In this document: piece by piece, positions 1,587 to 62,459 of the stretch | Numbering within the stretch: the stretch's first letter is position 1 | Layout of the letters: each line of letters begins with the position of its first letter | From: Sphyrna mokarran | Lineage: Eukaryota | Length of the DNA stretch: 64,000 bases | NCBI GenBank assembly: GCA_024679065.1 | Contig: JAGIQG010000004.1 | Coordinates: forward strand, 54,932,001-54,996,000 | Direction: 5' to 3' | Translations under genes and position numbers: made by a program | The notes under the pieces: generated by a model | What the model was told of the DNA's origin: nothing | Seen by the model: the letters and a program-made list of their open reading frames with translations, nothing else | The model's database searches: none

Positions 1587-4500
1587 CTGCAAGGTCAATG
1601 TTTAAAAATATTGTTTACTGGTTGCATCACAAGTCCCATAGTCCGTTGTTCAAAAAAAATTCATCAGAAGGGCACGCAGATCATCTTATAACAGCATAGG
1701 GGCAAAGTCAACAGAGACATATTTCCTGCTTTATCGCATGGGTATTGATGTTACACTGGTGTATTTTATTTCTCTGATCGGTTACTCGGCCCCACCTGAG
1801 AATACTCACCTTGTCACTTTTATGCTTTGGAGTTTTGCTCAAATCTAATGCAGCATAATGCACAAATCCAGACGCATTCTCCTGTTTGTGCAAAACGGAA
1901 AACTTTTGTTACGTGGCTTGTTCATTGTGTTCATCAGTTTACACTAATTTTGGTCAAACATTGAGCGGATTAACTTGGAATCCAATAGACGTGCACAAAA
2001 TATGATTAATTTACATTTTCTTAGTGCGAATATTAAGACACTGTACACTTCTCACTCCTATACCAAATATTTAAACCCACCAATTTCACTTGACGTAATT
2101 GTTATGTAAATGTTGAAACGGGCGCCAGCTTCATTACGTACAGGTTATCTCCGATCTGAATGCATAACTGAATTGATGAAAACTTATTAAGTATATTTTC
2201 AACGAGATAAGCCGTTCTCTTTTTTAAACTGTTCTAAACAGTTCATCACTGTTTGACAATAAAACACTCGATGGCAAGTAAATTTCCACATCCGATTGAA
2301 ATGTGGAATCTCATTGAGACAAACCAAGATGCGGAGATGCTGGCGTTGGACTGGGATGGGTTCAGTAAGAAGTCTCACAGCACCAGGTTAACAATTGATC
2401 TGATGCAGGAGCAGTGTCCCGAAACTTCGTGATTCCAAAAACAAAACCTGTTGGAATTTAACCTGCTGTTGTGAGACCTGTTACTGAGACAAAATAATTA
2501 CATTTATTTAATGGGCTTAAAATGGTCTGACGTGATTATATTCACTTTCCATTACATCAATCTTCTCTAGTGTTTCAACAAACTGCCTGTAAAATGAATG
2601 AACTTACCAGTTCCTGACTCCTGTTTCCTTCTGTTACACGTCCGTCTTTACCTAGAAATAATTGAAATTTAATGATATTGAAAGAAAAACGTTCTGAAAA
2701 TGATTCTTACGGACCCGAAATGTTTAGTCTGTGTGCCTCTGCACAGGCGCTATCAGAAGTGTTGTCCAGGATTTTCGGTTTTTCAACTCTTTTTTAACAT
2801 CAGAGATTGCCTCACATCAGAGATGGCCAGAAAAAAAAAGCCCAAGGTAATTTTCAATTTCGCATTGTGCGGAAAATAATTGAAATCCTTACAAGGAACA
2901 GGGTGCTTTAAAATATTTCGCGGAAACTACGGTAATACTACACATTCTACCAGAAATCGGGCAAGTACCGAACATCAACAACAATAATATTGCGTGACTG
3001 AGCAGGCCCGAGGAGCCGTCTGGCCTACTAATGCTACTGTTTTTTATGTAGCACTGTGCAGAACGCTTCCCGGACCACAGCCACGGTTAAATCTAATTGT
3101 AACTCCACCACGGAGCGGTTTGAAAACTTATTTTGTGTCAGAGTGTATTTCATTCATCTGGTTGCAAAAGGAAATGTGTTTGGAAACATCTAGATAATGG
3201 TTTTCATTACTTCTTTCTATGTCCTAAAACATATTTTCAACAATTAGTGCTTCCTCAAAGCTATACAACTCTTTTCAACTTTATCTCCGAACTGTCTTTT
3301 CTATTGCGTTCCCCGGAAACTATCAGTAGTCCCAAAGGTATGTACGAAAATCAAGTGTTATCTTACCTTCATTCTTCAGCATTTGTTTCCGCTTCGCAAT
3401 GACGATCGCAAGCACGAGGAACGACAATGCAACCAGCGCAATCAAATAGTAATGTAATGTCGGGGTATTTTCTGCAAGATTAATTGTAACATGAGGTAAT
3501 ATTGGATACTAAATTAAAAAAGGCTCCAAGACAGTTTATTATGTAAACCATAGTGATGGTTGCACCAACCCCGCAGTGTTCAACGGAAATAGAACGTTTG
3601 ACTAAAAAGCTTGTTTGCAGCTAAGGATCTGCAGTATCTTCTGCCTCGAATATTTGACGCATTATTGATGAATCTACGAAGACTAAAAGGCTGGAGTCAC
3701 ATGTAGGCCAGACCGGGAAAGGGTGACTGATTTCCTTTCCTCAAAGTCATCCGAGAGCCAGATGGGTTTTTGCGATGAATTATAGTTTCATGATACATTA
3801 CTGAAACGAATGTTTAGTTCAGTATTTATTAATTGGTTTTAAATGTCATGATGTGACTTGAACCGATATCCTCACAGCTTTAGCCTGCACGTCTTGAGTA
3901 ATAATCTAGTGGCATTAAAATCTCGCCACTATCTTCCCTTCGAAGTATGCCATTGGAGATAACCGGACAACACCTAAATGATTCACCCTTAACTGCCGCC
4001 TGAAAGGGCCTATCAAGCTACTCCATTTAAGGGCAATTAGGGATAAAGAATAAATATTGGCCTAACGAGCGACGTTCACATTCCATGAAAGAGTTTACTT
4101 CAAAAATACACTGAACCGGATATACAGCGTTTTTACCGGTTGCAGTTTAGATGAGATTTATGAGACTGATTTCAGTTAAACCCATTTTGATCTGTAAGTA
4201 GGATGAGAAGCTGGTCATTTGGTTATTCCAAATCTCTGCACTGAATGGAACCAAACTTATAAAAATATTGAAATCTCACGGCAATCAGCCCTTGCGCAAA
4301 CAACGGGCCTTCAGATCAAAGCAATAGTTTTCAATCAAGAGGGGTTCGCAACGATCAAGTTTAAAGCATTTTCACCAAAATAAACAGAAAGCGAAAAAGA
4401 CTAATAATATTCAGTTAAGAAATATTAAACTAGAAAATTTGGACGAACACTTAGTATTGTTCCGTTAGAAATAGAGCAATTTGAAAGCAGATACGTATGG

Positions 4501-6875
4501 ATTTTTGTTCTTATATGGGATGTGAGCATTGCTGACGAAGCCAGCATTCCCATTCCCAATGCCTCTGAACAGAACGGCCTGCTAGAAAGTTGCAGGGGCA
4601 GTTAAGATTCAACCACGTTGCTCTGGCTCTGAAGTCACATGCAAACCTGGCTGAGTAAGGAGGGACGTCCTTGCCTGAAGGACGTTCGTGAGCCGGATTG
4701 GTTTTTTACCACAATCGATGATAGTTACATGGTCACCATCACTGAGACTAATCTAATACTCGGTAGCTACTAATTGAATTATGTTTCCAGAAGCTGCTCT
4801 TGTGGGATGCGAATCCATATCCTTAGATTGATTACTAGCCTGAGTGCATGCTGGCTATATAAATCGATTTCAACACATTTCATTAAATTCAGTGTAAAGG
4901 CACTTTAATATTTCTGTTGATATTTCCCGTGGCATTTCTGTGATTATTAATATGCATAAAACTTACGAAAAAAAAAACACTATGAATTCTACTGTAGGTT
5001 GCTTTTCTTTTAGAACAGTTTTTCCCCTACCTCGGTTTGGTTTAGGAATCGTGTACACCACAATAGCCGGAGTCTTGAGGGTGACATGAGATACCTGGCA
5101 TGTATAATTGACGCCTCTCGGTACAGGCTGATTCTCAACAAAAGTGCTGGAAACCTCATACAGTCCGTCTCTGTTCTGCACTTTACTGGTGTGTGTTCCT
5201 GATGCAGTTTCGACGCCATTTTTATACCAAGTGAGGGTGTAATTTTCCGGATAAAATGCAGCCGTTTCACAGACGAGGATCAGAGGCGCAGTCGAATTCC
5301 CTTCAGTTACCCTGGAGAAAAGATTCAGTGGGGTTGGGGCAGCTGCGGAACAGAAAATGAACAAAGTACCTGTGCACGGTTTGGAAAAATTAAATATACT
5401 TTTGACGTTCGGTTAATGTCCTCACTCACTGGCAATTCTTATTTCCTGCATTTGAATATTACACACAAGATCAATATACAACTAATCCGTATAAAGACCG
5501 GCATTCGATCAACGACAATCATTTTTGAATTCCCTGTGGGACACAGGGTGAGGTGATTTGTTAATCAACGTTCTGTTAAAGCGGCTAGAGAATTGAATGT
5601 TGATGAGATTGTCTTCTCGCAGAGTTTTTACATACTTTATATACAATGATATGACAGATTGACGAATAATATTCATATTCTTGATGATGAAATAAGCATT
5701 TCAATGCTTCTTTAAAGTCGCATTTGATTGAACAAACTACTTTCAGTTGAATCAGCCGAAGTTTCACCAGCAGAGCGTCTCTTGTTAAATTATAGGCAAA
5801 ATATTGCAGATGCTGCAATCTGAAATAGCCTCTCTGTGTTTATTTATTTATTAGAAAATTAGTGAACTGGCAGCGATGTATGTCTGAAACTCCAATCTGT
5901 TGAGTAAATCGATTTGGTCAAAAGTTAAATATTGAATATTTGAATACGTGCCGTATCGTTCTTTGACATTTACTTTAAGGAATACTGGTATTCATGGACA
6001 ATTAAAACTAAGCCAAAAGCTTTGCATATTTTTCTTGGGAATGGCCCACTAGTATAAAAGATTTTCAGTTAGTTTTACTTTAGGAATTCATTCTGAATGC
6101 CGCCAATATAAATTGACTTTATAGTTGTGATGTGTTTGATAAATATTACTAATATGTTCAGTACTCTCCGAGTGGCATTGCTGGTATAATTTTAACGCTG
6201 AGGACACGAATATACAACTAACATCGCGAAATATGTTAATAGACATGATTTCACTAAGAAAAAGAATGCACATTCCTGATTGTTGTGTTTGATGTATTAT
6301 GGTGATCTCGTTCGCCTGTATTTCAATCTTACCATGTACAATTAGATGCGATCCGGTTCCATTTCGTTGATCTATTCCCCGACGGATCACGGTACAATGG
6401 TAGATTCCAGAGTCTTGCAATTTCACATTTACTAAGCGAAAGAAACCGCTCACTTTATTTTCCACGCCAAAAGTTTTTCTCTTGTCTGGGCTTGAATGCA
6501 GGAATTCACTCTCACCATGTTTCCACCAGAATACCCGTACCCAGGATTGGGATTGAAAAATGGGGAATATACAGTAGAAGGTGATGTTTCCCCCTCTGGA
6601 TACAATCGCTTCGACTGGTGCTTGAGACACACTGAACGAAGTATGGTCCGCAACTGTCAGAAAGATAGACAGACACAGGTTAATTGCAGTAGATACAACA
6701 TAAATGTCGAAAAGTGAAAGCATAATCTAGAGAGAGGAAATAAGGTTCTTTAAATTGATATGAAAACTACTTCCTCGGAAGTTATTAATCAAAGTAACAT
6801 GGCAAGTGAAAAACTAGTACCTGCATGAATAATTCCTCGGAGGACCAAGCATAAAAGTGCTATGATCGTTGTCAT
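1422..6875 (-). CDS. Receptor A: SIRP/NITR-like VJ-C1 Ig-superfamily type I membrane receptor, inhibitory form (357 aa, 7 exons)
   Basis: Manual splice assembly: join(6875-6821, 6653-6333, 5342-5031, 3471-3367, 2651-2608, 1881-1810, 1586-1422). All introns are GT-AG, phases 1,1,1,1,0,0, 1074 nt open to TAG. Signal peptide, V domain, C1 domain, hydrophobic TM and tyrosine motifs VHYAAL, LIYSRV, TEYAQL. Every splice site is conserved in the paralogous copy. No transcript evidence available. Confidence 0.88.
1810..1881 (-). CDS. Receptor A exon 6, cytoplasmic, ITIM 1 (ENASGFVHYAALDLSKTPKHKSDK)
   Basis: Acceptor caaacag, consensus donor AAG|GTGAGT, 72 nt, phase 0-0. Confidence 0.82.
2327..2486. 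mobile_element. Short fold-back element derived from Penelope-like terminal repeats (intron 5 of receptor A)
   Basis: 29-nt imperfect inverted repeats at 2363-2391 and 2458-2486. The right arm resembles the terminus of the Penelope remnant at 37870-37958. Degenerate hammerhead core CTGATGC...GAAA. Confidence 0.6.
2608..2651 (-). CDS. Receptor A exon 5, cytoplasmic spacer (GKDGRVTEGNRSQEL)
   Basis: Acceptor tttctag, donor G|GTAAGT, 44 nt, phase 1->0. Same length in copy B. Confidence 0.78.
3367..3471 (-). CDS. Receptor A exon 4, transmembrane (ENTPTLHYYLIALVALSFLVLAIVIAKRKQMLKNE), uncharged
   Basis: Acceptor cttgcag, donor G|GTAAGA, 105 nt, hydrophobic stretch followed by KRK stop-transfer. 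Confidence 0.88.
3690..3937 (-). mobile_element. Deu-domain (SacSINE1-like) SINE fragment
   Basis: Reverse complement of the element at 12450-12802 (ctggagtcacatgtaggccagacc...ccagatgggtttt). Confidence 0.7.
4512..4855 (-). mobile_element. Deu-domain (SacSINE1-like) SINE
   Basis: gggcagttaagattcaaccac...ctgaagtcacatg...gtgagccggattggtttttt, same family as 12450-12802. Confidence 0.7.
5031..5342 (-). CDS. Receptor A exon 3, C1-set Ig domain
   Basis: Acceptor ttccgcag, donor G|GTAGG, 312 nt. Motifs LVCETAAFYP, LTWYKNG, NRDGLYEVSS, YTCQVSH. Lies within ORF 4963..5364. Confidence 0.95.
6333..6653 (-). CDS. Receptor A exon 2, V-set Ig domain with J-like G strand
   Basis: Acceptor tttctgacag, donor G|GTAAG, 321 nt. 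Motifs ITFYC, VFWW, QDSGIYHC, NGTGSHLIV. Lies within ORF 6088..6723. Confidence 0.95.
6821..6875 (-). CDS. Receptor A exon 1, signal peptide MTTIIALLCLVLRGIIHA
   Basis: ATG at 6875, hydrophobic core, 55 nt ending in phase-1 donor G|GTACTA. Confidence 0.85.
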
Positions 6876-26253: not shown

Positions 26254-26596
26254 CAGAGTTGAGAAAAATGAGCAGCACGAGAGCACTGCATTTAGAAAAT
26301 TGCTGTCTCCTTCCCACCGCTTATACTACTTTTAATTCTACTACCCTGTTATCATCTGAAAAAAATTACACGTCAGCAAATAAATCAATCTATGGTAGAA
26401 GAAAATTAATGAATTTACTTCAACTCAAACAGAGTTGAGAAAAATGAGCAGCACGAGAGCAGTGCATTTAGAAAATTGCTGTCTCCTTCCCACCGCCTAT
26501 ACTACTTTTAATTCTACTAACCTGTTATCATCTGAAAAAAATTACACGTCGGCAAATAAATCAATCTATGGCAGAAGAAAATTAATGAATTTACTT
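26254..26596 (+). repeat. 176-bp direct tandem duplication, 2 copies
   Basis: cagagttgagaaaaatg at 26254 and 26430, about 5 mismatches. Confidence 0.95.
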
Positions 26597-37958: not shown

Positions 37959-38019
37959 TTTCAATTCCATGAAGGTGTTATTTGATACTTTTCGCCATAT
38001 AAACCTCTGAAGCACGTTT

Positions 38020-40520
38020 AGAGCACAGAAAATAGAACATTACAGCGCAGTACAGGCCCTTTGGCCCTCGATGTTGTGCCGACCAGTGGCACCAATCTAA
38101 TGACTCTCTATCTAACCTATTCCAATGTTATCCATATGCTTATCCACTGACCATTTGAACGTCCTTAAAGTTGGCGAGTCCACAACTGCTGCAGGCAGGG
38201 CATTCCACGCCCTTACTACCCTCTGAATAAAGATCATACCTCTGACATCCGTCCTATAACTACCACCTCTTAATTTAAAGCTATGTCCCTTCGTGTTAGC
38301 CATCATCATCCAAGGAAAAAGGCTGTCACTATCCACCCTATCTAACCCTCTGACCATCTTGTATGCCTCAATTAGGTCACCTGATAACCTTCTTCTCTCT
38401 AATGAAAATAACCTCAAGTCCCTCAGCCTTTCCTCATAAGACGTTCCCACCATACCATGCAACATCCTGGTAAACCTCCTTTCCAATGCCTCCTCATCTT
38501 TATTATAATGCAGCGACCAGAACTGTATGCAATACTCCAAGTCCGGCCACACCAGAGTTTTGTACAGTTGCAACATGACCTCACAGCTCTGAAATTCAAT
38601 CTTCTACCAATAAAAGCTAACACACTGTACGACTTCTTAACAACCTGATCAACCTGGGTGTCAACTTTCAGGGATCTATGCACATGCACACCGAAATCTC
38701 TCTGCTCGTCGACACTACCAAGAATCCTTCCATTAGCCCTATATTCTGTACTCCTGTTCCTCTTACCAAAGTGAATCATCTCATACTTTTCCGTATGAAA
38801 CTCCATTTGTCACCTCTCAGCCCAGCTCTGCAGCTTATCTATGTCCCTCTGCAAACTGTAACATCCATCCTCACTGTCTACAACTCCTCTGACTTTGGTG
38901 TCGTCAGCAAATTTACTAACTCATCCTTCTACACCCTCATCTAAGTCACTTATAAAAATGACGAACAGCAGTGGCCCCAAAACAGATCCCTGAGGTACAC
39001 CACTTGTAACTGAACTCCAGGTTGAATATTTCCCATCAACAACCACCCCCTGTCTTCTATCAGCAAGCCAATTCCTATCCAAACTGCTAATTCACCCTCA
39101 ATCCCATGCATCTGCAATTTCTGCAGTAGCCTAACATGGGGAACCTTATCAAATGCTTAGCTAAAATCCATATACACCACGTTAACTGCCTTACCCTTAT
39201 CTACCTCTTTGGTTACCTTTTCAAAAAACTCAATAAGGCTTGTGAGGCACGACCTACCCTTCACAAAACCGTGTTCACTATCCCTAGTCAACCTTGTTCT
39301 CTCTAGATGACTATAAATCCTATCCCTTATAATACTTTCCAAAACTTTGAGAAGTTAGGCTCACCGGTCTATAATTCCCAGGGTGGTCTCTACTCCCCTT
39401 CTTGAACAAAAAGACAACATTTGCTACCCTCCAGTCTTCCGGCACTATATCTGTAGCAAATGACAGCATGAAGATTAAAGCCAAAAGCTCTGCAATCGCC
39501 CCCCTAGCCTCCCAGAGAATCCTAGGGTAAATCCCATCCGGTCCAGGGGACTTATCAATTTTCATACTCTCAAGAATTGCTAACACCTCCTTATGTATCT
39601 CAATCCCATCTCGTCTACAGCCCTGTATTTCATTATTCTCCTCGACTACACTGCCTTTCCCTGCGTGAATACTGACGAAAAATGCTCAGTCAGTGCCTCT
39701 CCTATCTCTTCAGGTTCCATGCACAACTTCCCACTGTTGTGACTGACTGGCCCTAATCTTACCCTAACCAATTTTTTATTCTTGACATACCTATAGAAAG
39801 CTTTAGGGTTCTCCTTGATCCTATCCGCCAAAGTCTTCTCATATCCTCTTCTAGCTCTTCTTAACTCTCTCTTTAGCTCCTTCCTGGCTAATTTATAACT
39901 CTCCAGTGCCCGAACTGAGCCTTCACATTTCATCTTTATGTAAGCCTCCTTTTTCCTCTTCAGCAGAGATTCAACTTCCTTAGTATACTACTGTTCCCTC
40001 CCTCGGTCACTTCCTCCATGCCTGACAGGTACATATTTATCAAAGACTCGCAGTAACTGCTCCTTGAATAATTTCCACATTTCAGATGTTCCCCGGCCTT
40101 GCAGTTTCCTACTTCAATCTACATATCCTAAATCTCACCTGATAACCTCATAATTACCTTTCCCCCAGCTATAACTTTTACCTTTCGGTATATGCCTATC
40201 CCTTTCCATCACTCAGGTAAATGTAACCGAATTGTGGTCACTATCACCAAAATGCTCACATACCTCCAAGTCTAACAACTGGTCTGGTTCATTACCCGGT
40301 ACCAAATCCAATATAGCCTCACCTCTTGTTGGCCTATCTACGTATTGTGTCATGAAAGCTTAGTGCAGGTATTGGACAAAAACTGACCCCTCTAATGTGC
40401 TTACACCATAGCTTTTCCAATCGATATTTGTAAAGTTAAAGTCCCCCATAAAACTACCCTGTTACTTTTGCTCCTATCCAGGATTATCTTTACAATCCTT
40501 TCCTCTACATCTCTGGAATT
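38020..40520 (-). mobile_element. CR1 (HER1-like) LINE, 2.5 kb, endonuclease end to 3' tail, disrupted
   Basis: ORFs 39646..39933, 39320..39586 (KSPGPDGIYPRIL, NYRPVSLTS), 39157..39342 (HGFVKGRSCLT), 38423..38806 and 38112..38576. Confidence 0.95.
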
Positions 40521-41835: not shown

Positions 41836-42790
41836 ATCAGTAATGATAGGCAATAGCATCTTCTTCATGATTATCCTCAATACCAGTGTCCCGCAAGGCT
41901 GTGTCCTGAGCCCTCCACTTTGCTCCTAATACATCTATGATTGTTTGGTCAAATTCCCCTCCAATTCGATTTTCACGTTTGCTGATGACACTAGCATAGT
42001 GGTCGGATCTCAAACAACGATGAGATAGAATATAGGACTGACTGAATTGGCGGAACAACCATAATCCTTCCCTCAATGTTAGTAAAATGAAGGAGAGAAT
42101 CATCGACTTCAGGAAGCTTAATGGAGAACATGCCCCTCTTGACAGCAACAGGGATGAAGTGGAAATCATTGAAAGCTTCAATTTTCTCGGTGGCTAAATC
42201 ACCAATGACCTATCCTGGACACTTGACACCAGCGCTATAGCTAAGAAAGCCCACCAACACCTCTACTTTCTCAGGGGTCTAAGGAAATTCAGCATGTCCG
42301 CTTCAACTCCACCAAATTTTGTAGATACACCAGAGAAAGCAACATTTCTGGATATATCACAACTTGATATGGCTCCTGCTCTGACTAAGACCTCAAGGCA
42401 CTAAAACGGGTCGTGAACGAAGCCCAATCCATCGCGCAAACTAACCTTCCATACATTGACTCTGTCTACACTTCCCACTCCCACGGAAAAGTAGCCAAGG
42501 AGCGTAATAATCAAGGACCCTATGCACCCAGGATGTACTCTCTTCCACAATTTTCCATTGGGAAAAAGATAAAAAGCCTAAGGTCATGTTCCAAAGGACT
42601 CAAGATCAGCTTCTTCCCCACTGCCATCGGACCTTTGAATAGACCTATTTTATATTAAGTTGACCTTTCTCGTCAGCCTAGATAGGACTATACTGCGACA
42701 TTTTGAAGCGTTATGCGTTGTTTCCTTAGGAACAACAAACAATGTTTTTCATTGTATACTAATACATGTGACAATAAAAGCTTAATTTAA
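41836..42790 (+). mobile_element. Rex1/Babar-like non-LTR retrotransposon 3' fragment
   Basis: IILNTSVPQGCVLSP, FTFADDT, SLNVSKMKE.IIDFRK and KKAHQHLYFLR remnants with stops and frameshifts. Confidence 0.8.
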
Positions 42791-42911
42791 AAGCAAGGTC
42801 TTCAAATGGAAGTCCCTTGCCTGTATCTTTACTAATTGGATGACAACATGATGTAGTGGATTTTTTTTTGTAAAACTTTTCCGTCATCATTTCCATCTCC
42901 AAATGTACGAT

Positions 42912-43804
42912 ATATAGTTGGAGGATAAGATTCAGCTTAATAAAGACCATTCCTCACCAAGTGCCCAGAATTTGTTTAAAGTTGACTTTTATGGCTGATT
43001 TTGGCAATGTGCTGAAGCTGTAATTTCTGAGTCACTGAGATCAGTGTTACAGTATTTTAGTATATAGAAAAATGCAATACGTATGGGAAATTTAAACTTA
43101 ACTTTCCTACATCTTGTGTAATCATTAGTAAGAAAAGGACAGACAATGTGTGCAGGAATAAGCCTTCGATCATGTAAAGGAATTAATTAAATAATTAAAT
43201 GCCAATACACGAAACAGTTACATTTTACCGTGGTAACGATAGTGCTGTTTAGAAAGGTGCAGTAACATGATTAAAACGGGACATCCGTTGCACGTGTGTG
43301 TCGCTATAATTATACATTGAAACACACGATGTAAAATAACTGCTGCTTTTGAATACTTGATACATCCAGTGTGTTGCAATGTTGCTACATTTAGAAATGA
43401 TACGTTCGCATTTCGAGAAGACCGAGAGAAATACGTCCCCTGCCAAGTTCCAATCGTTAGTACGCCTTGTCAATATTTAGCAACGTATAGGTGTAGCTCA
43501 AAGCAGAAAGTTACAAACCCCCAGCAAATAGTTTACACGCTATCAGCTTATCCAGATAAACGGCCACACATTGTCTGTCCTTTTCTTACTAATGATTGCA
43601 CAAGATTTAGGAAAGTTAACTTTAAATTTCCCATACGTATTGCACTTTTCTATATGCTAAAATACTGCAATACTGATCCAGTGACTCAGAAATTACAGCT
43701 TCAGCACATTGTCCAAAATCAGCCATAAAAGCCAACTTCAAAGAAATTCTGGGCACTTGGTGAGGAATGCCCCTTATTAAGCTGATTTTATCCTCCTACT
43801 ATAT
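42912..43804. repeat. ~240-bp inverted repeat (arms 42912-43152 and 43565-43804, spacer ~410 bp)
   Basis: aagaaaaggacagacaatgtgtg versus cacacattgtctgtccttttctt, and cattcctcaccaagtgcccagaattt versus aaattctgggcacttggtgaggaatg. Confidence 0.95.
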
Positions 43805-44962
43805 TTTTTACATACCGTAATAGCCACTATTTGGGTTAATTTAGCGTCAAAATTATTTATACTACTTTGTTTCCATATTGAGTCAACAATTGTTTGTCAG
43901 GTAAGAAAATTAAATGTTAGGTAAACCAAAGCATTATGACAGTTGAACAGTTGCCCATTTACTTGCATTTTTCAGGATCCATCTCTTTCCAGATAAATGT
44001 TTCGTCGTCAGCCTAACCAAACGGATCAAACCCCAACAGGTCAAAAAAAAAAATGAACATGGCTTCTTCTGTGGAAGTATTTGAAGAAATAAATAAGACA
44101 ACAGAGAAAGAAGTTGCAGAAAATGCCGACTGCCTGGAGTAGAAAATGACAGTCTATCGATATAGGAGAATGGCGCTTGGATAAAGAATACATACATTTT
44201 GTTGCAAAATGGAATTCGATGCATATCCATAAAGGAAACTCTGATTGCTATGGGGAAAGAATCGGGATGGGAATAATTGGGCAACGCTGTCAAATTTCCA
44301 GCACGGGTCAAACGGTCACTTTCTCAGATACAGGATTCCACAATTCGACATGGTGTCATGTAGAAATAGATGTTTGTAAAGCAAGATACAACTCGAACCT
44401 ACTTTCAGTAAATCGATAGGGAAATTCAAGTATTCAGCTTCACCCGTTTTCTATCAGGTGCATCAGCTGAACTGGATACAACGCACTGGCACGTATTCAA
44501 CGTAATAAGGGGACGTATGAATCTACACCTTTTTTTCTGTTTTACTGAACAAAGTTAATACTGATCGTTAATTTGTAAGGAGTCCTAGAAAAACGATTTT
44601 TAAAAAAATTTACTTTACTATACAGATAATTAGGTACCACGGGACACAATGTATCGTTGTAGCCGAAAGAACATATTTGTCATTGTTTTTAAAATGTACT
44701 CATTGAACAATACCGTATGACAAGACAGTTTTTTTTAAGCAACGAAAATAAACTTCTGGAAGTAACTGAGTAGCAAGTGACTACCACGTACTGCATTATC
44801 TGATAGACATGATATCATAGAGCACAAACACTCCTGGTGTCGGTACTGCAGAGAGACGCGATCAGCGTACTCCAGAGAAGTGAATTCTGCGTCGAAATTC
44901 AATTGCTAATTGTTTTTCTTCTCCGTATGGCCAGACTCTTTTGCTCCATTTTGTTTCATTCT

Positions 44963-45070
44963 TCACAGTTGGGCATAATCAGTGCATCTTTCGTTAGCTT
45001 TGCTGTTGTCTGAACTGGTCAACGCTACACGTGAGTATATCAAGTCATTACCGATTTTCCTTTGTTGAGT
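44963..45070 (-). other. Receptor B exon 7 homolog, relic ITIM/ITSM frame (TQQRKIGNDLIYSRVALTSSDNSKANERCTDYAQL*), 3' UTR in the full splice form
   Basis: Acceptor gaccttgcag intact, paralog of 1586-1479, TGA where copy A has CGG. Confidence 0.75.
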
Positions 45071-45302
45071 CTGCAAGGTCAATGTTTGAAAATATTGTTT
45101 ACTGGTTACATCGCAAGTCCATGGTCCGCTGTTCAAATAAATTCATCAGAAGGGCACACAGATCATCTTATAGACAGCATAGGGGTAAAGTCAACAGAGA
45201 CATATTTCCTGCTTTATCGCATGGGTGTTAATGTTACAATGGTGTACTTTCTTTCTCTGATCGGTTACTCGGCCCCACCTAAGCATACTCACCTCGTCAC
45301 TT

Positions 45303-45356
45303 TTATGCTTTGGAGTTTTGCTCAAATCTACTGCGGCATATTTCAGACTCATTTTC
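45303..45356 (-). CDS. Receptor B exon 6 coding part, frameshifted (ENESEICRSRFEQNSKA*)
   Basis: Acceptor ccaagcag. The exon is 64 nt (45356-45293) versus 72 nt in copy A. TAA at 45305-45303, donor GAG|GTGAGT retained. Confidence 0.75.
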   Translation of the reverse strand, partial: ENESEICRSRFEQNSKA

Positions 45357-48300
45357 CTGCTTGGGCAAAAAGGAAAATTTTTGTTAAGCGGCTGGTTCAA
45401 TGTGTTCACTTGTTTAAAATAATTTCGATCAAACATTGAGTGGATTAACCTGGGATCGAATAAACCTGCGCAAAATATAATTAACTTACAATTACCTCAG
45501 CGCGAATATTAGGGCACTCGACACTTTACACTCTTATCCCAAATGTTTAAACCCGCCAATTTTAATCGACATAATTGTTACACGAATATCGAAACAGGCG
45601 GTAACTTCATTACGTAGAACTTATTTTCGATCTGAATGAATAAATGGATCGATGAAAGCTTAGTAACTGTATTTTCAACGAGATAAGCTGTTCTCTTTTC
45701 TAAACGTGTATCGCTGTTTGCCAATAAAGCAACTGTATTTCCACATCCGATTAAAATGTGGAATTTCATTGAGGGAAAAACAAGATGCGGAGATGCCGGC
45801 GTTAGACTGGGGTGGGTGCAATAAGAAGTCTCGCAGTACCAAGTTAAAAATTCAACTGATGCAGGAGCTGCGCACTGAAACTTCGAGATTCCAAAAAAAA
45901 AACCCTTTGGACTTTAACCTGGTGTTGTGAGACCTTTTACTGAAACAAAACAAATACATTTATTAAGTGGACTTAAACTGATCTGATTATATTAAATTTC
46001 CACTATATCAATCTTTCTTGGTGTTTCAACAAACTGCCTGTAAATGAATGAACCTACCAGTTCCTCGCTCCGTTTCCCTCCTGTTACACTTCCGTTTTTA
46101 TCTGAAAACAAGTGAAATTTAAAGATATTCAAATATAAAAGTACTGTAGAAGAATCTTACGGACCCGAAATATTAACTCTGTGTGCTTCTATACAGGCGC
46201 TACCAGAAGTGTTGACTTTATCCAGGATTTTCTATTTTTCAACTCATTTTTCACATCAGAGATTGGAAAGATAAGTCTATGGTTAAAGAAAAACCCAAGA
46301 GGATTTCTAATTTTGTAATGTGCGGAAAATAATTGAAATCCTTAGAACCAGCAGGGTACTTTAAAATATTTCGTGGGAGCAATGGTAATATTTCGCATCG
46401 TATGAGAAGGCGGGCAAGTGCCCAACATCAGCGACGGTAATATTGCGTGACGGAGCAGACCCGAGGAGCCATCTGGCCTTCTACTGCTCCTGTTTGTTTT
46501 GTAGCTCTCTGCACAGCCGTTCTCGGACCAGAGCCACAGTTAAAGCTAATTGTGACTCCACCACGCAGCGGTTTGGAAACTAATTTTGTGTGGGACTGCA
46601 TTTTGTTCATGTGGTTCCAAAACGAAGTATATTTGGAAACATCTAGATAACTGTTTTTATCTTTATTTTATCTCCATGTCTTAAAACATATTTTCAACAA
46701 TTAATGTTTCCTCAACATCATACGACTCTTTACAACTTTAATTCCGAACTGATCACCAGTTTACAGTAATTTTGGTCAAACATTGAGTGGATTAAACTAG
46801 GATCGAATAGACGTGCACAAAATATAATTAATTTACATTTACCTAAGTACGAATAGTAAGACACTCTAAACTATCAGTCGTGCCAAGGATATGTACAAAA
46901 ATCAAGTGTTATCTTACCTTTATTCTTTAGCATTTGTTGCTGCCGCGTAATGACAATCGCAAACACGAGGAATAATCCAACTAGTGCGCACACTCGAATC
47001 GAATAGTAAAGTAATATCGAGATATTTTCTGCAAGATTAATTGTGACATGAGGTAATAGTGGATATTAAATAAAAAAGGGCTCCAAGATATTTATTATTT
47101 AAACTATAGTGATGGTTGCACTAATCCTGCATTGTTCAACGGAAATAGAACGTTTGAATAAAAAAACTTGTTTGCAGCTAAGTATCTACAATATCTTCTT
47201 ATTCGAACACTTGGCCATTATTGGTTAATCTACGAAGACTAAAAGGCTGGCGTGATGTTTAGGCCAGACCGGGAAAGGGTGACTGATTTCCTTTCCTAAA
47301 AGTTATCAGAGAGCCAGGTCGGTTTTTGCGTCAGAATTATAGTTTCATCCCACATTACTAAAACGAATGTTTAGTTCAACATTTATGAATTGGTTTGAAA
47401 TGTCATGATGTGATTTGAAGCAATATCCTCATAGCTTTAGCCTGCACGTCTTGAGTAATAGGCTAGTGGCATTAAAATCTTGCCACCATCTTTCCTTAGT
47501 AGTATGCCATTGGAGATAATCGGACAAAAACCAAATGGTTCACCCTTAGTTGCTGCCTGAAAAGGCCTATTAAGCGACTCCGTTTAAGGGCAATTAGGCA
47601 TAAATAATAAATAATGACCTAGCCAGTGACCTTCACATTCCATGGAAGAGTTTACTTTTAAAAAATCGGTGAACCGGAAATACAGCATTTTTGCCGGTTA
47701 GAGTTTAAATAAGATTTATGAAACTGCTTTCAGTTAAACCCATCATGATCTGTAAGTAGGATGAGAAGATGGTCACTTGATTATTCCAAAGCTCTGCACT
47801 GAACATAACTGAACGTGTAACAATATCGAAATCCCATGGCAATCAGCCCTTGAGCAAACAATGGGCCTGCCGATCATAACAATAGTTTTCAAGCAAGAGG
47901 AGTTCGCAACGATCAAGTTTAAAGCATTTTCAACAAAATAAACAGAAAGTGAAAAAGACTAATAATATTCAGGTTAAGAAATATTACATTAGAAAATATG
48001 AATGGTTGCTTGATATTGTTCCGTTAGAAATCGAGGAATTTGAAAGGAAACATGTTTGGATTTTTGTTCTTATTTATGAGATGTGAGCTTTGCTGACGAA
48101 GCCAGCATTGCCCATTCCCAATTGTTCCTGAACAAAATGGCCTGCTAGAAAGTTGCAGGGGCAGTTAAGTTTCAACCACGTTACTCTGGCTCTGAAGTCA
48201 CAGGTAAACCTGGCTGACTAAGGAGGACAGATTTCCTTCGCTGAAGGACATTCGTGAATCGGATTGGTTTTTAAAACAAACGATCATAGTTACATGGTCA

Positions 48301-50462
48301 CCATTAATAAGATTTACCTGATATCCCATAGCTATTAATTGAATTATGTTTCCAGAAGCTGCTCTTGTGGGATGCGAATCCATGTCCTTAGATTGATTAC
48401 TAGCCTGAGTGCATGGCTGGCTATATAAATCGATTTCAAACATTTCATTAAATTCAGTGTAAAGACACTTTAATGTTTCTGTTGATATTTCCCGTGACAT
48501 TTCCGTGATTATTAATATGCGTAAAACTTACGAAAAAAATCACTATGAATTCTACTGTAGGTGGCTTTCCTTTTAGAAACAGTTTTTCCCCTACCTCGGT
48601 TTGGTTTAGGAATCGTGTACACCACAATAGCCGGAGTCTTGAGGGTGACATGAGATACCTGGCATGTATAATTGACGCCTCTCGGTACAGGCTGATTCTC
48701 AACAAAAGTGCTGGAAACCTCATACAGTCCGTCTCTGTTCTGCACTTTACTGGTGTGTATTCCTGATGCAGTTTCGACGCCATTTTTATACCAAGTGAGG
48801 ATGTAATTTTCCGGATAAAATGCAGCCGTTTCACAGACGAGGATCAGAGGCGCAGTCGAATTCCCTTCAGTTGTCCTGGAGAAAAGATTCAGTGGGCTTG
48901 GAGCCGCTGCGGAACAGAAAATGAGCAAAGTACTGTGCACGGTTTGGAAAAATTAAATATACTTTTGACGTTCGGTTAATATTCTTACTCATTCGCAATT
49001 CCTATTTCCTGCATTTGAATATTACACACAAGATCAATATACAACTAATCCATATAAAGACCGGCATTCGATCACCTACAATCATTTTTGAATTCCCTGT
49101 GGGACACAGGGTGAGGTGATTTGCTAACCAACGTTCTGTTAAAGCAGCTGGAGAATTAAATCTTGATGAGACAGTGGTCTCGCTGAGTTTTTACGTGTTT
49201 TATATACAATGACATGACAGATTGACGAATAATATTCATATTCTTGATGATGAAATAAACGTTTTAATGCTTCTTTAAAGCCGCAGCTTGATATTTGATT
49301 AGACAAACTACTTCCATTTAAATCGGCCGAAGTTTCACTAGCAGAGCCTCTCTGTTAAATTATAGGCAAAATGTTGCAGATGCTGGAATCTGAAACAGCA
49401 TCTCTGCGTTGTTTATTTATTTATTTGAAAATTAGTGAACTGGGAGCCATGTATGTCTGAAACTCCAAACGGTTGAGTAAATAGATTTGGTCCACAGTTA
49501 AACATTAAATATTTGAATACGTGCCGTATCGTTCTTTGAAACTTACTTTAAGGAATACTGGTATTCATGGACAATTAAAACTAAGCCAAAAGCTTTGCAT
49601 ATTTTTCTTGGGAATGGCCCATTAGTATAAAAGATTTTCAGTTAGTTTTACTTTAGGAATTCATTCTGAATGCAGCCAATATAAATCTGGTGCATAAATT
49701 GATTTTATAGTTGTGATGTGTTTGATAAATATTACTAATATATTCAGTACTCTCCGAATGGCATTGCTGGTATATATTTAATGCAGAGGATACGAATATA
49801 CAGCTAACTTATCGCCAAATATGTTCATAGACATGATTTCACTAAGAAAAAGAATGCACATTCCCATTGTTGTGTTTGATGTATTATGGCGACCTCGTTC
49901 GCCTGTATTTCAGTCTTACCATGTACAATTAGATGCGATCCGGTTCCATTTCGTTGATCTATTCCCCGACGGATCACGGTACAGTGGTAGATTCCAGAGT
50001 CTTGCAATTTCACATTTACTAAGCGAAAGAAACCGCTCACTCTATTTTCCACACCAAAAGTTTTTCTCTTGTCTGGGCTTGAATGCAGGAATTCACTCTC
50101 ACCATGTTTCCACCAGAATACCCGTACCCAGGATTGGGATTGAAAAATGGGGAATATACAGTAGAAGGTGATGTTTCCCCCTCTGGATACAATCGCTTCG
50201 ACTGGTGCTTGAGACACACTGAACGAAGTATGGTCCGCAACTGTCAGAAAGATAGACAGACACAGGTTAATTGCATTAAATACAACATAAATGTAGAAAA
50301 GTGGAAGTGTAATCTAGAGAGAGGAAATAAGGTTCTTTAAATTGATATGAAAACTACTTCCTCGGAAGTTATTAATCAAAGCAACATGGCAAGTGAAAAA
50401 CTAGTACCTGTAAGAATAATTCCTCGGAGGACCAAGCACAAAAGTGCTATGATCGTTGTCAT
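45303..50462 (-). CDS. Receptor B: paralogous VJ-C1 receptor, putative activating form (298 aa, TM arginine, tyrosine-free short tail)
   Basis: join(50462-50408, 50240-49920, 48906-48595, 47028-46918, 46101-46058, 45356-45303), all GT-AG, 897 nt to TAA. An 8-nt deletion in exon 6 relative to copy A shifts the frame. Could alternatively be a decaying gene. Confidence 0.82.
45783..45942. mobile_element. Paralog of the Penelope-derived fold-back element
   Basis: Homologous to 2327-2486. Confidence 0.6.
46058..46101 (-). CDS. Receptor B exon 5, cytoplasmic spacer (DKNGSVTGGKRSEEL)
   Basis: Acceptor ttttcag, donor G|GTAGGT, 44 nt. Confidence 0.76.
46918..47028 (-). CDS. Receptor B exon 4, transmembrane with Arg (ENISILLYYSIRVCALVGLFLVFAIVITRQQQMLKNK)
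   Basis: Acceptor cttgcag, donor G|GTAAGA, 111 nt. In-frame +9 and -3 nt indels versus copy A. Confidence 0.88.
47245..47495 (-). mobile_element. Deu-domain SINE fragment (copy B)
   Basis: Paralog of 3690-3937. Confidence 0.7.
48072..48420 (-). mobile_element. Deu-domain SINE (copy B)
   Basis: Paralog of 4512-4855. Confidence 0.7.
48595..48906 (-). CDS. Receptor B exon 3, C1-set Ig domain
   Basis: 312 nt, LVCETAAFYP...YTCQVSH, four amino-acid differences from copy A. Lies within ORF 48512..48940. Confidence 0.95.
49920..50240 (-). CDS. Receptor B exon 2, V-set Ig domain with J-like G strand
   Basis: 321 nt, same splice sites as copy A, one amino-acid difference (VENR vs VENK). Overlaps ORF 49825..50217. 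Confidence 0.95.
50408..50462 (-). CDS. Receptor B exon 1, signal peptide MTTIIALLCLVLRGIILT
   Basis: ATG at 50462, 55 nt, phase-1 donor, paralog of 6821-6875. Confidence 0.85.
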
Positions 50463-50620: not shown

Positions 50621-53600
50621 TTTTTAAGTGAGATTTTCTAATTTTTGCAACTACTGAGTTTCCTGGAATTACATGTTTTACTGGCAGCACAAAGTAAGGA
50701 GAATGCAGATTTTCTAACACTGAATTTATGAACATTCTCCGAGTTAATTTGTTTCCTGACAGGTAATGAACGAAAATGAATTGAGAATACGCACCATGCT
50801 CATATTCAGACCTACTGTAAATAAGGACAGCTGTCTGGCTGTTTTTATACTGCACAAGAGCTAGAGAGACATGATCTGGGAGCTGACCACATATGCACTG
50901 TGTTCAGTGAGACCAGAAGATTGGGGATATGTTGGCTATTTCTAAGGAGAGCACAGTAGAATTCGAGTTTTTTGAAGAGGAATGATGACAATGGTATCCA
51001 TGGGCCTAAAGTCATCAAATAAGCCGACTGTTAGCATGTTAGCTGTGACCGGACTGTAAAAGTGGGCGATAAGTTGTTCATTCGCATATAAACTATGCAT
51101 TGAAAATGGTTCTTAGATAATACATGTTTAAAGTGTGTCTGGGGAAGAAGACGAGAGATTTCTGCGTTACAGAATTTTTCGCTTATGGTAGGATGCGGAG
51201 TAGCAATTTGGTTCGCTAGATAAATGGAAAGAAGGAAGCAATAGAAATCATTGGCTGGAAGATAATTTGGTGACAAAGGATTCCTTGAACGTCTTGTAAT
51301 ACTCGCTAAGCGAGAAAGCTTGAGAGATTTAAGCAGAATGTTTTGGTTTGGGGGTAGGGAGGGTGAATGTGTAGGGTGGCGGGTTGTTTGTGATGAGCGT
51401 GGCAGTTGCGGTGCAGGGGAACAAAAAAATTATTTGTTGTTGCTCTCCAGCACAATTATCTAATAATGAGCAGTTGTGGCTGTGAACGGTGAGACTTTGG
51501 GAAGCTTCTCTTGATTTAACCAGATAAGGCTCTGGATGGTTAGACCCGTTGTTTGTAAGAGCTAGTCAATCAATGTTATACCATTATTACAGTAAGCATT
51601 CGAGAACGTGAGGCATTTATTTTGACTACTTGCGCTTACTCTTTATATCCTTTCTTTTCTCAACAGAATTCCAAATTATTTCATTCGAGGAGTGCACTGT
51701 TTCCAATCTGTATCCCAGAAAAACATTTTGCTACAAAGCTGTATAATCTGGTAGCCATCACAGGAATTGTCTTGTATTTTATGGTCGCATGCTTCCTCTC
51801 AAAGTAATTTTTTGGATACAATTATTCAATCAGAGAGCGGGCTTCATACTCAATGGTGTCTCATGTCCAGCTCAGTCGATTGTGAGTTGGATAATCATTC
51901 CGGGGGCTTCAACAGTCAATCCGAATTGTAAGATAATGCTTTGCTAGCCGAATGCTACAATATTAGAGATGTCTCATTTTAGATGAGGTGTTCAGTAACA
52001 GCAGCTGCTTCGTAAAACGACCTTTCCTTCTCCAGTCCTTGCTTCCTGTTTTCTTTCACCTTTCCATGTAACATTTACACTTCGATGTGTATTAGGTCAC
52101 ATCGAATATTACCTACTGCTTTGGGAGAGAACACCAAGATGAATGATGAAAAACGAGATAAAAATTGCACAGCCAACTGAGAAAGCCAACTCTCTTGGTG
52201 TGAAGATGAGTTCGGAAATGGGAGAGATTGTACCCAGTTTCATGGAATTCAGTTATTCAGATGGGTAGGAGACGCTGAGAACATGCTTTTTAGAACAGAA
52301 ACAAGGAAGAATAAATGTGATAAAAATTTTCGAAACTATCAGTAGCTATACAGATGTAAATGGAAAAATTGTTTCTCGGATTTGTAAGGTAAACACGAAC
52401 ATCTGTGATGATTAGCGAAGTAGTCAGAGGTGAGAAATATTTATGGGCACTGCACTATATTCTCCCTTATTCCTTCAGGGATGTTGATGTCGTTGGAAAG
52501 ATCACCATTTGTTACTTATCCCAAATTGCATAATCAAGAATTTTGTTGTAGATCTGGAGTCACTCACCGGCCAGACTGGACAATAAGACAAATAAACTTC
52601 CATAAGGGCCATTACTGGGGGGGGAAATTCACTGATAGAAGATTTAGATTCCAGATAAAATAGCTGCTTCAAATACCTCAATAACTTAAATATTAGCTGA
52701 CGTGCTGGTATTTGGTCGAATGCTGCCAATTCCTTACAGTCGGTCCTCTTAATTGTTTCGTCAATCGTTAGCATCTAAGCCACCATCTTTGCGCTCTGTG
52801 CTGCACATGCTAAGCAATGTTTGGCTAGCATCAAGCAAATGGATGCCAAAATGTCCTAAACACTTGACTGAAAATGTTTTAATTGCAGCCTATCAAAGTA
52901 GCCGCGTTAAGTACTGAATTCTATCGTACTGAAACAAGTCGCAGGAGATAATACTGGCGAGGGGAAAAATGATATGTGTTTACGTAAGACCGAGTTTCCG
53001 CGGAACTTTGAAGCTGCTGTCCTGCATTTATATGGTACCGGAGCATTTTGGTTTGTGCTGATATGGATCGAGTATTACATCTTAACAAAATGAATGTTTT
53101 CAGTACCAAACCACGAACCAGTACGAAAAAGCAAAATATTCCCCAAGCCGTAGCTTGACTAAATAAAAAGGCCGTGATCAATTGAAATGCACGATTATTA
53201 CATTGAACAATATGAAGGGAAATACGGGGATATCTAACAGTAACAGACCACAGAAAATTCAGAGCTAAAGGCGAACATTCAAAGGTGAATAAAAGTGGAC
53301 ATTTATAAGAAAACAAGTACCAAATATATTGATAGAGTTCTATATTGATAGAATACCAACGCTTAATGGCAAATATTCACGTCAAATCGGTATGCATTAG
53401 CAGGACAAGAGAAATGATGCTAACATAATCTTGATGTTCTTTATAGTTTTCCAGTCAATTGTCTTTTCTGGACTTTAAAAGCTAAATTAAAGGATATGGT
53501 TCAATATCTAAGCCTGGTACAAAAACAAATTCTTGTTTACCGCGCGACATGTGCAGAAGCAAACAATTCAGTGCGTTCCGATTTTCGGAAGTTGACAGAA

Positions 53601-53779
53601 TTTTACAACAGGCAGTTTTTTTTTGCATTCTCGGTATTCCCAATTTCTATTTTTTTTCTGCAAATTTTTGATGGTTTCATAATCATTAGTGTCATGAAAC
53701 TATAATTTTGTAGTTTGAATTAATATGTTCTGAAGAACTTTTTGCTCAAATTGATGAAGCCATTTAACAAAAGCGATTC

Positions 53780-53985
53780 CAGAATTATTGGAAACCAGAC
53801 CGTTTAGTTCAGGAGACAGCCTTAATTGTGGGACAATTAACAAAAGCAAAACCAGAATTATTGGAAACCAGAGAAGTTCGTTCAGAAGACAGTCTTCATT
53901 GTGCAACAATTAGCAAAAGAAAAACCAGGGTTATTAGAAACGAGACAGGTTAGTTCAGGAGACAGACTTAATTGTGAGACAATTA
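53780..53985 (+). repeat. 73-bp tandem repeat (copy B)
   Basis: Paralog of 11311-11516. Confidence 0.9.
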
Positions 53986-54924
53986 AAGAATAATTGTTCA
54001 TTAATAGAAATGCTAGGAAGACCGGAAGGAAGACCGGAAGTGTAATTTTGAAAAGAAAACTTTCTTTTATAATTATGAACAAATCATTAACAGTTGCTTA
54101 TTAATACAGTTTCTTAAAATGCTGTGGAAGTAAAAATCTGGTGTACTTCTCAGGCCACTGAGTAAAAAGAGATAATATGACTTGTTAATCTTATCTAGAA
54201 AGAATGAATAGGCACTTGATTAATGAGATGCTGAAAAATGTGGGCAGTGAGGGAAAGACACAGCTTTTGACGGATAAGCGTTGAAAGTTATTTTCTAAGT
54301 TTTTCGGAGTCGTCACTTCAGAACGTCGCCTTTGAAGGTGTCACGAAATTTCTTCGATTGTTAAAGATAAGCTCTCTCCTCTTATTACTATCAACGAATA
54401 GCATATTGCTATTAATTAGTACTTTGCCTTTTATCTTTCTGACGTTTTACCTTTTTCATAATTAATAAACATGTTGTACTCGCCATTTAAAGTGACCTTT
54501 CTTCCAATATAGTTAAGTCTGTAGATTCTGATGCGATTTTTAAATGGATGGTAATTGCAAACAAATGATCCCTACAAATCTTAGATCAGATAAATAAAAA
54601 AAATGTAATACTGCCTCTGCATGAAGAAGATTCCGAAGGAGACGTCGCTTCACTCCGAACTGATTGAGAATTGCGTTGCTTTTTCCTAAAAGGCTTTGAA
54701 ATAAATTTGAATTTGAAGTCTCAACACATATATATTTCGTGTGATATCATTTATTTTATATTATACTCGACAACAGCTTGCGCAACATCTCTAAGCATCA
54801 GACCGTTGATTAGCTTACTTGGCGATTGCTGTTCCCACAACCATCCTATTGTTTATTAAAAATGCTGTTAAAGTCAAAGCATGTTGTGTTGATCGCTATA
54901 ACTTCGGCACAATACTGACAGTGT

Positions 54925-62455: not shown

Positions 62456-62459
62456 ATAG

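What the first reader, a model, noticed from the sequence alone, without database searches (positions are those of the whole stretch)
46918..47028. Transmembrane arginine unique to receptor B, in the position used for FcRgamma/CD3zeta pairing
B reads LLYYSI-RVC-ALVGLFLVFAIVIT and A reads LHYYLI---ALVALSFLVLAIVIA. A 9-nt in-frame indel (CGAGTGTGC) supplies Arg and Cys at the outer end of the TM, and the juxtamembrane KRK becomes RQQ. Established: an N-terminal TM Arg characterises FcRgamma/CD3zeta-coupled receptors (NKp30, NKp46, LILRA, GPVI, OSCAR), unlike the central Lys of DAP12 partners such as SIRPB1. Both indels preserve frame, suggesting the exon stayed under selection.
Basis: partly seen in the sequence, partly recalled or inferred. 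Interest (0 to 1): 0.76.

Follow-up and report, generated by a model that had tools for sequence, protein, structure and literature searches.

The report
Shark receptor caught switching to activating
One of two tandem shark immune-receptor genes gained a membrane arginine and a frameshift in a tail exon, so it likely acts as the activating partner of its predicted inhibitory twin, a switch that relatives in this little-described family appear to have made repeatedly.

Summary
In detail: 46918-47028 is the TM exon of gene B, a tandem duplicate (43.5 kb apart) of gene A. Both encode leader-VJ-C1-TM-tail receptors with 98-99% identical ectodomain exons. Shark outgroups carry the triplet, with Pro where B has Arg, so A lost 9 nt, the Cys is ancestral, and B's Arg is a substitution. 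The functional idea gains support. In 64 family TM segments Arg peaks 17-18 residues before the cytosolic boundary (12 cases, no Lys); B's is at 17, TM position 3 of a 19-residue window, as in FcalphaRI. None of the 12 has two tyrosine motifs (27 of 52 others do). B also has an 8-nt frameshift in tail exon 2, predicting a 41-residue tyrosine-free tail, while A keeps three motifs. Skipping that exon would keep two motifs, and no RNA was available. Best reading: an inhibitory receptor recently turned activating through a zeta-family adaptor, in a SIRP-like chondrichthyan cluster. The principle is known from KIR/Ly49; adaptor binding, splicing and expression are untested.

The parts
46918..47028 (-). 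Gene B transmembrane exon (111 nt, phase 1-1), the finding
   Evidence: AG/GT ends; 78% identical to Mustelus P0006 over 37 columns
46994..46996 (-). Arg codon CGA, 17 residues before the cytosolic boundary; Pro in the Mustelus relative
46988..46996 (-). The 9 nt (Arg-Val-Cys) present in B and, as x-x-Cys, in outgroups; deleted in A
50408..50462 (-). Gene B leader exon (predicted)
   Evidence: ATG, hydrophobic, phase-1 GT; 52 of 55 nt identical to A; similar to leaders of P0009/P0011/P0012
49920..50240 (-). Gene B VJ-type V-set exon
   Evidence: Pfam V-set 9e-9; AF2 model pLDDT 90.5, generic V fold; 318 of 321 nt identical to A
48595..48906 (-). Gene B C1-set exon
   Evidence: Pfam C1-set 3e-12; 305 of 312 nt identical to A
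46058..46101 (-). Gene B tail exon 1 (44 nt, no tyrosine)
   Evidence: matches P0006
45293..45356 (-). Gene B tail exon 2 (64 nt) with an 8-nt deletion at about 45345 relative to A; shifts frame, stop TAA at 45305-45303; splice sites intact
44963..45070 (-). Gene B tail exon 3 up to its TGA; still encodes LIYSRV and TDYAQL if exon 2 is skipped, otherwise 3' UTR
6821..6875 (-). Gene A leader exon (predicted)
6333..6653 (-). Gene A V exon
5031..5342 (-). Gene A C1 exon
3367..3471 (-). Gene A TM exon (105 nt), no Arg, 9-nt deletion
2608..2651 (-). Gene A tail exon 1
1810..1881 (-). Gene A tail exon 2 (72 nt, in frame), ITIM VHYAAL
   Evidence: homologous motif in P0008-P0011
1422..1586 (-). Gene A tail exon 3 to stop; ITIM LIYSRV and ITSM-like TEYAQL

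Best explanation
Gene B carries a new transmembrane Arg and a frameshifted tail exon, and is likely the activating partner of its predicted inhibitory twin A, with the Arg predicted to pair with the Asp pair of a zeta-family ITAM dimer (CD3zeta or FcR-gamma). Shown in sequence: A and B are tandem VJ-C1-TM receptors with 98-99% identical ectodomain exons; A keeps three tyrosine motifs and has no TM charge; B has Arg at 17 residues from the cytosolic boundary and an 8-nt deletion in tail exon 2. Inferred: the common ancestor was inhibitory like Mustelus P0006 and Heptranchias P0010/P0011; B switched by a Pro->Arg substitution plus the frameshift, which gives a 41-residue tyrosine-free tail if exon 2 is spliced in; the stop lies 10 nt from the last known junction and would escape nonsense-mediated decay; gene conversion keeps both ectodomains alike, so both would see the same ligand with opposite outputs.
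For: Ectodomain exons 99%/98% identical against TM 74%, tail exon 1 80%. Outgroups show Pro/Ala/Leu/Ile at the Arg site and an ancestral Cys. In 64 family TM segments, Arg occurs 0 times at positions 10-16 from the cytosolic boundary, 8 times at 17, 4 at 18, 0 at 19, 1 at 20; Lys 0 times at 17-18. 0 of 12 Arg members have two or more tyrosine motifs against 27 of 52 others (Fisher p 7e-4); median tail 33 against 96.5 residues; 12 of 26 tails under 60 residues carry Arg, 0 of 38 longer ones. Without the six members that share one old Arg...Asp-His module, 0 of 6 have any motif against 35 of 52 (p 0.0025). B's Arg is position 3 of the best 19-residue window; FcalphaRI's Arg is position 3, Fc-gamma prefers Arg over Lys, and flanking TM sequence matters little (PMC1440944 passages). 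Both B tail exon 2 splice sites are intact. The same two-step switch (TM charge plus loss of ITIMs) formed activating KIR and Ly49 (PMC2213150 passages).
Against: Splicing is not observed. Skipping exon 2 is in frame and keeps LIYSRV and TDYAQL, and the Mustelus gene model lacks exon 2. The Arg's depth depends on window length: position 2, 3, 6 or 8 for windows of 17-23, so it could snorkel. The family counts rest on automatic gene models whose tails may be truncated and on related sequences, so the p values overstate independence. A 2014 screen found no FcR-gamma in sharks (PMC4016189). B lacks all four AATAAA hexamers that A has downstream. pN/pS is below 1 but on few sites (TM 0.17/0.22, tail 3 0.09/0.16) and does not separate coding from non-coding use of exon 3. 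An Arg gained before the duplication and then removed by A's deletion is less parsimonious but not excluded.
Confidence: 0.5

Rival explanations
1. The Arg is incidental and B is a non-signalling decoy or a decaying duplicate. The Arg would snorkel to the outer head groups and the frameshift would reflect relaxed selection on the tail.
For: B has many private changes in TM and tail against P0006, including an early stop in exon 3; no AATAAA downstream; Arg depth is window-dependent; 14 of 26 short-tailed family members have no Arg, so tails are lost without a switch.
Against: Leader, V, C1, TM and tail exon 1 are intact with canonical splice sites; both TM indels are in frame (p about 0.011); the Arg falls on the only intramembrane position where the family tolerates Arg.
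Confidence: 0.22
2. B is a dual-function receptor: the Arg recruits a zeta-family adaptor, but exon 2 is skipped, leaving a 59-residue tail with one ITIM and one ITSM-like motif, as in KIR2DL4 or NKp44-1, or both isoforms are made.
For: The skip is in frame and both motifs are intact, with the stop right after the last one; the Mustelus model has this same exon 1-exon 3 tail; charged residue first, ITIM loss later is described for rat Ly49s3 relatives (PMC2213150); NKp44-1 has both (PMC6514059).
Against: 0 of 12 other Arg members keep two motifs. The kept motifs lie in a tract (45340-44963) 92% identical to A against 82% upstream, where the intron (93%) is more alike than the exon (88%), which points to gene conversion rather than protein-level selection (tract limits chosen after seeing the data). 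Exon 2 splice sites are intact.
Confidence: 0.2
3. B activates through another partner: DAP10, DAP12 or a shark-specific acidic TM protein.
For: FcR-gamma was not found in sharks in 2014; activating SIRP-beta uses DAP12 (PMC3533184).
Against: Type I DAP12 clients use a central Lys, and an Arg at position 3 mismatches DAP12's Asp at position 9 (PMC1440944); the family uses Arg, never Lys, at 17-18.
Confidence: 0.08

Closest known systems
Activating KIR (short-tailed) and Ly49 derived from inhibitory homologues (PMC2213150, passages read)
   Same: Activating form made from an inhibitory one by gaining a TM basic residue and losing ITIMs by stop or frameshift; signalling modules recombined onto other ectodomains.
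   Different: Different protein family and lineage (cartilaginous fish VJ-C1); Arg near the outer TM end rather than the central Lys for DAP12; B still holds an intact motif exon that could be used by skipping.
SIRP family (SIRP-alpha/beta/gamma)
   Same: VJ-type V plus C1 ectodomain; SIRP-alpha is the best non-antibody PDB hit of the family profile over V+C1 (2wng, E 1.5e-31); RefSeq names most relatives SIRPA-like; tails with several ITIM/ITSM-like motifs; paired forms.
   Different: One C1 exon per gene here against two in mammalian SIRPs (recalled); activating members use outer Arg, whereas SIRP-beta uses DAP12; antibody chains and UrIg2 score as well or better, so orthology is not shown.
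FcR-gamma/CD3zeta-coupled receptors (FcalphaRI, NKp46, NKp30, LILRA)
   Same: Type I protein with Arg in the N-terminal TM segment (position 3 as in FcalphaRI); short tail predicted.
   Different: Ectodomain unrelated in architecture (NKp30 has one V domain, NKp46 two Ig domains); adaptor binding untested.
Mustelus asterias XP_078066559.1 (P0006), closest database relative
   Same: 76% V, 87% C1, 78% TM-exon identity; same tail exons 1 and 3.
   Different: Pro in place of Arg, Ser kept, long exon 3, model lacks exon 2; single inhibitory-type protein.

Membership tests
Paired immune receptors (as a kind) | Adjacent genes with near-identical ligand-binding ectodomains | tested here: met
   Tandem 43.5 kb apart; V 318/321 nt, C1 305/312 nt
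Paired immune receptors (as a kind) | One member with ITIMs and no TM charge | tested here: met
   A model: VHYAAL, LIYSRV, TEYAQL; no Arg/Lys within 21 residues of the boundary, one His at 20
Paired immune receptors (as a kind) | Other member with TM basic residue and no ITIM | tested here: inconclusive
   Arg present; ITIM loss depends on inclusion of the frameshifted exon 2, no RNA seen
Paired immune receptors (as a kind) | Shared ligand and opposite signalling in cells | not testable with these tools
   needs expression and assay
FcR-gamma/CD3zeta-coupled receptors | Arg, not Lys, in the N-terminal TM segment | tested here: met
   Arg at 17 from the cytosolic boundary; position 3 of the 19-residue window, 2-8 over windows of 17-23; criterion from PMC1440944
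FcR-gamma/CD3zeta-coupled receptors | Physical, Arg-dependent assembly with the adaptor dimer | not testable with these tools
FcR-gamma/CD3zeta-coupled receptors | The adaptor exists in this lineage | tested here: inconclusive
   PMC4016189 found no FcR-gamma in sharks; shark CD3zeta is recalled, not checked; searches gave no paper on it
SIRP | VJ-type V domain followed by C1-set domain | tested here: met
   single V exon ending in a G-x-G-S J-like strand; Pfam V-set and C1-set
SIRP | Three-domain V-C1-C1 ectodomain (recalled) | tested here: not met
   tblastn with the family finds one C1 exon per gene; relatives are V-C1-TM
SIRP | Activating member couples to DAP12 through a central Lys | tested here: not met
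   no central Lys in B; Lys at position 8 in only 2 of 64 relatives
SIRP | Orthology by tree or synteny; CD47 binding | not testable with these tools
   no whole genome held; profile hits to SIRP, UrIg2 and Ig chains are of similar strength
NCR3/NKp30 | Single IgV ectodomain | tested here: not met
   C1 exon lies between V and TM; NKp30 has one IgV (PMC6514059)
NCR3/NKp30 | V domain specifically closest to NKp30 | tested here: inconclusive
   NKp30 ties with many V domains: Z 13.4, rmsd 2.2, 101 aligned, 22% identity; Foldseek rank 47
NCR3/NKp30 | MHC linkage | not testable with these tools
   no flanking genes found in the window; no genome held

The most novel reading that the evidence does not exclude
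Cartilaginous fishes, from chimaera to rays, carry an undescribed SIRP-like VJ-C1 paired-receptor cluster that makes activating members in two ways: an ancient Arg...Asp-His TM module moved onto new ectodomains, and repeated fresh conversion of inhibitory TM exons by an Arg at one fixed depth plus tail loss. Gene B is such a conversion caught mid-way, with its motif exon still present. If sharks truly lack FcR-gamma, the partner would be CD3zeta-like, making this the oldest known paired-receptor system built on a zeta-family adaptor.
Probability: 0.4. Interest if true: 0.68.

Novelty: new variant of a known kind. Interest (0 to 1): 0.5.

Why it matters
If right, the inhibitory-to-activating switch described for primate KIR and rodent Ly49 also runs, repeatedly, in the oldest jawed-vertebrate lineage, in a SIRP-like family and with the Arg (zeta-family) rather than Lys (DAP12) code. 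A and B differ by only about six ectodomain residues, so they give a ready test pair for which ITAM adaptor sharks use for innate receptors and for whether pathogen mimicry of an inhibitory ligand drives such pairs. The principle itself is known, which caps the surprise.

Tried and rejected
Single 6-nt indel instead of 9+3: fewer matches and contradicted by Mustelus. Arg gained by insertion: rejected, outgroups have the triplet. Arg inherited as an NKp30-type ancestral residue: rejected for this gene, the seven nearest outgroups lack it and the gene has a C1 exon. Alternative acceptors for B exon 2: the two with good pyrimidine tracts (45359, 45356) both give the shifted frame; an in-frame one at 45391 has a poor tract, 7 of 19 pyrimidines. 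RNA: no RNA holder listed, so splicing and the 8-nt deletion could not be checked on reads. No whole genome held. Fold and Atlas searches gave only a generic V-set fold. The careful ectodomain tree did not finish; the quick tree was used, and ectodomain trees are blurred by conversion, so its 15 changes for 15 Arg rows are not a count of origins. The TM-plus-tail tree leaves A, B and P0006 unresolved. No adaptor complex was modelled because no adaptor sequence was held. Earlier scan findings: none. Literature searches (open-access full text only) listed no paper on this cluster; the shark NCR3 family paper (Kinlein 2021) was not held and the one elephant-shark supplement file searched had none of the terms, so prior description is not excluded.

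Full report
Observation. The stretch 46918-47028 is an exact exon on the minus strand (111 nt, phase 1-1, AG/GT) encoding a TM segment; its paralogue lies at 3367-3471 (105 nt). The two sit in a tandem duplication about 43.5 kb apart. The quoted peptides are correct. The best alignment needs 9 nt missing from A and 3 nt missing from B (84 matches, against 80 for one 6-nt gap). Of 56 non-coding A/B indels only 6 are multiples of 3, so two in-frame indels are unlikely by chance (p about 0.011).

Gene anatomy. Predicted exons for both genes are leader, V, C1, TM and three tail exons, all with canonical splice sites. Pfam gives V-set and C1-set; an AlphaFold model of the V exon (pLDDT 90.5) is a generic V fold with no standout relative. 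tblastn with the family finds only these two genes in the window and one C1 exon each. A/B identity is 99% in V, 98% in C1, 74% in TM (82% on ungapped columns), 80% in tail exon 1 and 88% in tail exon 3: homogenised ectodomains over diverged signalling parts, the usual paired-receptor pattern. A's model has a 102-residue tail with VHYAAL, LIYSRV and TEYAQL (ITIM and ITSM definitions from PMC12151841 passages; the last motif ends in Leu and is only ITSM-like). B's tail exon 2 lacks 8 nt. Spliced in, it shifts frame to a stop at 45305-45303, giving a 41-residue tail without tyrosine; the stop is 10 nt from the last known junction, so it would escape nonsense-mediated decay (the 50-nt rule is recalled). 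Skipped, exon 1 joins exon 3 in frame and gives a 59-residue tail with LIYSRV and TDYAQL.

Polarity. The closest database protein is Mustelus asterias P0006 (76% V, 87% C1). Its TM reads SIPVCALVGLSFL then TRRQQ. Heptranchias and Heterodontus proteins (P0008-P0012, P0015) also have the x-x-Cys triplet, with Pro, Ala, Leu or Ile at the first place. So A deleted the 9 nt, B deleted the Ser codon, the Cys and RQQ are ancestral, and B's CGA is most simply one base from a Pro codon (inference; Mustelus DNA was not seen). Tail exon 2 with its ITIM is ancestral too. An Arg gained before the duplication and removed by A's deletion is possible but less parsimonious.

Family context. Profile searches returned a large V-C1-TM family. 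Every member with a TM whose name was seen is chondrichthyan (chimaera, sharks, skates, rays), and within a species they share one contig length, which suggests one cluster (30 proteins were looked up, not all 64 are named). I scanned the 100 proteins P0005-P0104: 31 had no scorable TM after C1 (fragments, truncated models, or under the hydropathy cut-off, among them Arg-bearing P0039 and P0053), 4 long multi-C1 chains and 1 duplicate were dropped, leaving 64. Counting back from the first cytosolic polar residue, Arg is absent at 10-16, occurs 8 times at 17 and 4 times at 18, 0 at 19 and once at 20; Lys never occurs at 17-18. B's Arg is at 17. None of these 12 has two tyrosine motifs, against 27 of 52 others (p 7e-4); 3 of 12 have one; median tails are 33 and 96.5 residues; no tail of 60 or more residues (0 of 38) goes with Arg. 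Six of the 12 share an old TM module ending in Asp-His, found from Callorhinchus to Chiloscyllium and attached to scattered ectodomains. For five of the other six, and for B, the nearest TM is an Arg-free one, which suggests repeated fresh conversion; these six have no motif at all against 35 of 52 (p 0.0025). The models are automatic and related, so the p values are optimistic, and 14 of 26 short-tailed members have no Arg.

Mechanism. In the best 19-residue hydrophobic window the Arg is position 3 (2 to 8 for windows of 17-23). Feng and colleagues place FcalphaRI's Arg at position 3, show that Fc-gamma prefers Arg and DAP12 a central Lys, and that a properly placed basic residue can suffice (PMC1440944, passages). 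NKp46 and NKp30 use Arg with CD3zeta or FcR-gamma (PMC6514059, passages). I therefore read B as an inhibitory receptor recently turned activating (0.5). The dual-function reading (exon 2 skipped; 0.2) is real: the skip is in frame and the Mustelus model lacks exon 2. Against it, the kept motifs lie in a tract 92% identical to A against 82% upstream, with the intron more alike than the exon, which looks like gene conversion (limits chosen after the fact). An incidental Arg in a decoy or decaying copy (0.22) is favoured by B's private changes and its lack of AATAAA hexamers, and disfavoured by the intact frame and the exact depth. Which adaptor is open: a 2014 screen found no FcR-gamma in sharks (PMC4016189, passages); that sharks have CD3zeta is recalled and was not checked.

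Comparison with what is known. The switch works like that of activating KIR and Ly49, which arose from inhibitory homologues by a TM charge plus ITIM loss and spread by recombination of the signalling domain (PMC2213150, passages). The family resembles SIRPs: SIRP-alpha is the best non-antibody PDB hit over V+C1 and RefSeq names many members SIRPA-like. It has one C1 rather than two (the mammalian count is recalled) and uses outer Arg where SIRP-beta uses DAP12 (PMC3533184, passages), so I do not file it as SIRP. It is not NCR3, which has a single V domain. VJ-C1 genes are discussed in general in PMC10751288 and PMC12227049 (passages) without this cluster appearing in the passages shown. Nine full-text searches of open-access papers (listings only) showed no description of it, but the shark NCR3 family paper (known only from a reference list) was not held and subscription papers are not covered.

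Verdict. Real feature, wrong polarity, plausible function, stronger than first stated because of the tail frameshift and the family-wide Arg pattern. New variant of a known kind; interest 0.5. Adaptor binding, splicing and expression remain untested.

Noticed in passing
P0021, P0025, P0045, P0064, P0067, P0088: An old Arg-bearing TM module ending in Asp-His with short tails is shared from chimaera to sharks and sits on unrelated ectodomains; Heptranchias P0025 has it on an ectodomain almost identical to motif-rich P0010, a second apparent pair.
   Followed up: partly
P0028, P0170, P0039 (stingrays); P0007, P0016: Arg replaces Gly just before the TM Cys in inhibitory-type TM exons, with tails ending after tail exon 1; conserved between Hypanus and Hemitrygon.
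   Followed up: partly
window 44963-45340 against 1479-1860: A/B identity rises to 92% (intron 93%) amid about 82%, suggesting a gene-conversion tract over tail exons 2-3.
   Followed up: partly
window 42500-44963: No AATAAA or ATTAAA downstream of B's last exon on the minus strand, while A has four AATAAA; B's 3' end is uncertain.
   Followed up: partly
window 3367-3471: A's TM is three residues shorter than its relatives' and has a His 20 residues before the boundary; effect unknown.
   Followed up: no
window 42903-43813: Inverted repeat with arms of about 250 nt at 92% identity; one arm is an insertion in B's 3' flank relative to A.
   Followed up: no
window 9478-10455, 19190-20344, 38019-39987, 61352-63287: Degenerate reverse-transcriptase-like frames, likely LINE fragments (family resemblance recalled, not tested); part of P0045 matches them, so that model includes repeat sequence.
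   Followed up: no
window 11295-11517 and 53764-53986; 26254-26596: A 73-nt tandem repeat (3.1 copies) upstream of both genes and a 176-nt tandem pair between them.
   Followed up: no
window 52563-52894: About 330 nt present upstream of B and absent upstream of A.
   Followed up: no
P0076, P0085: Two Heterodontus family members have a Lys only 8 residues before the called boundary, a different TM charge pattern or a mis-called boundary.
   Followed up: no
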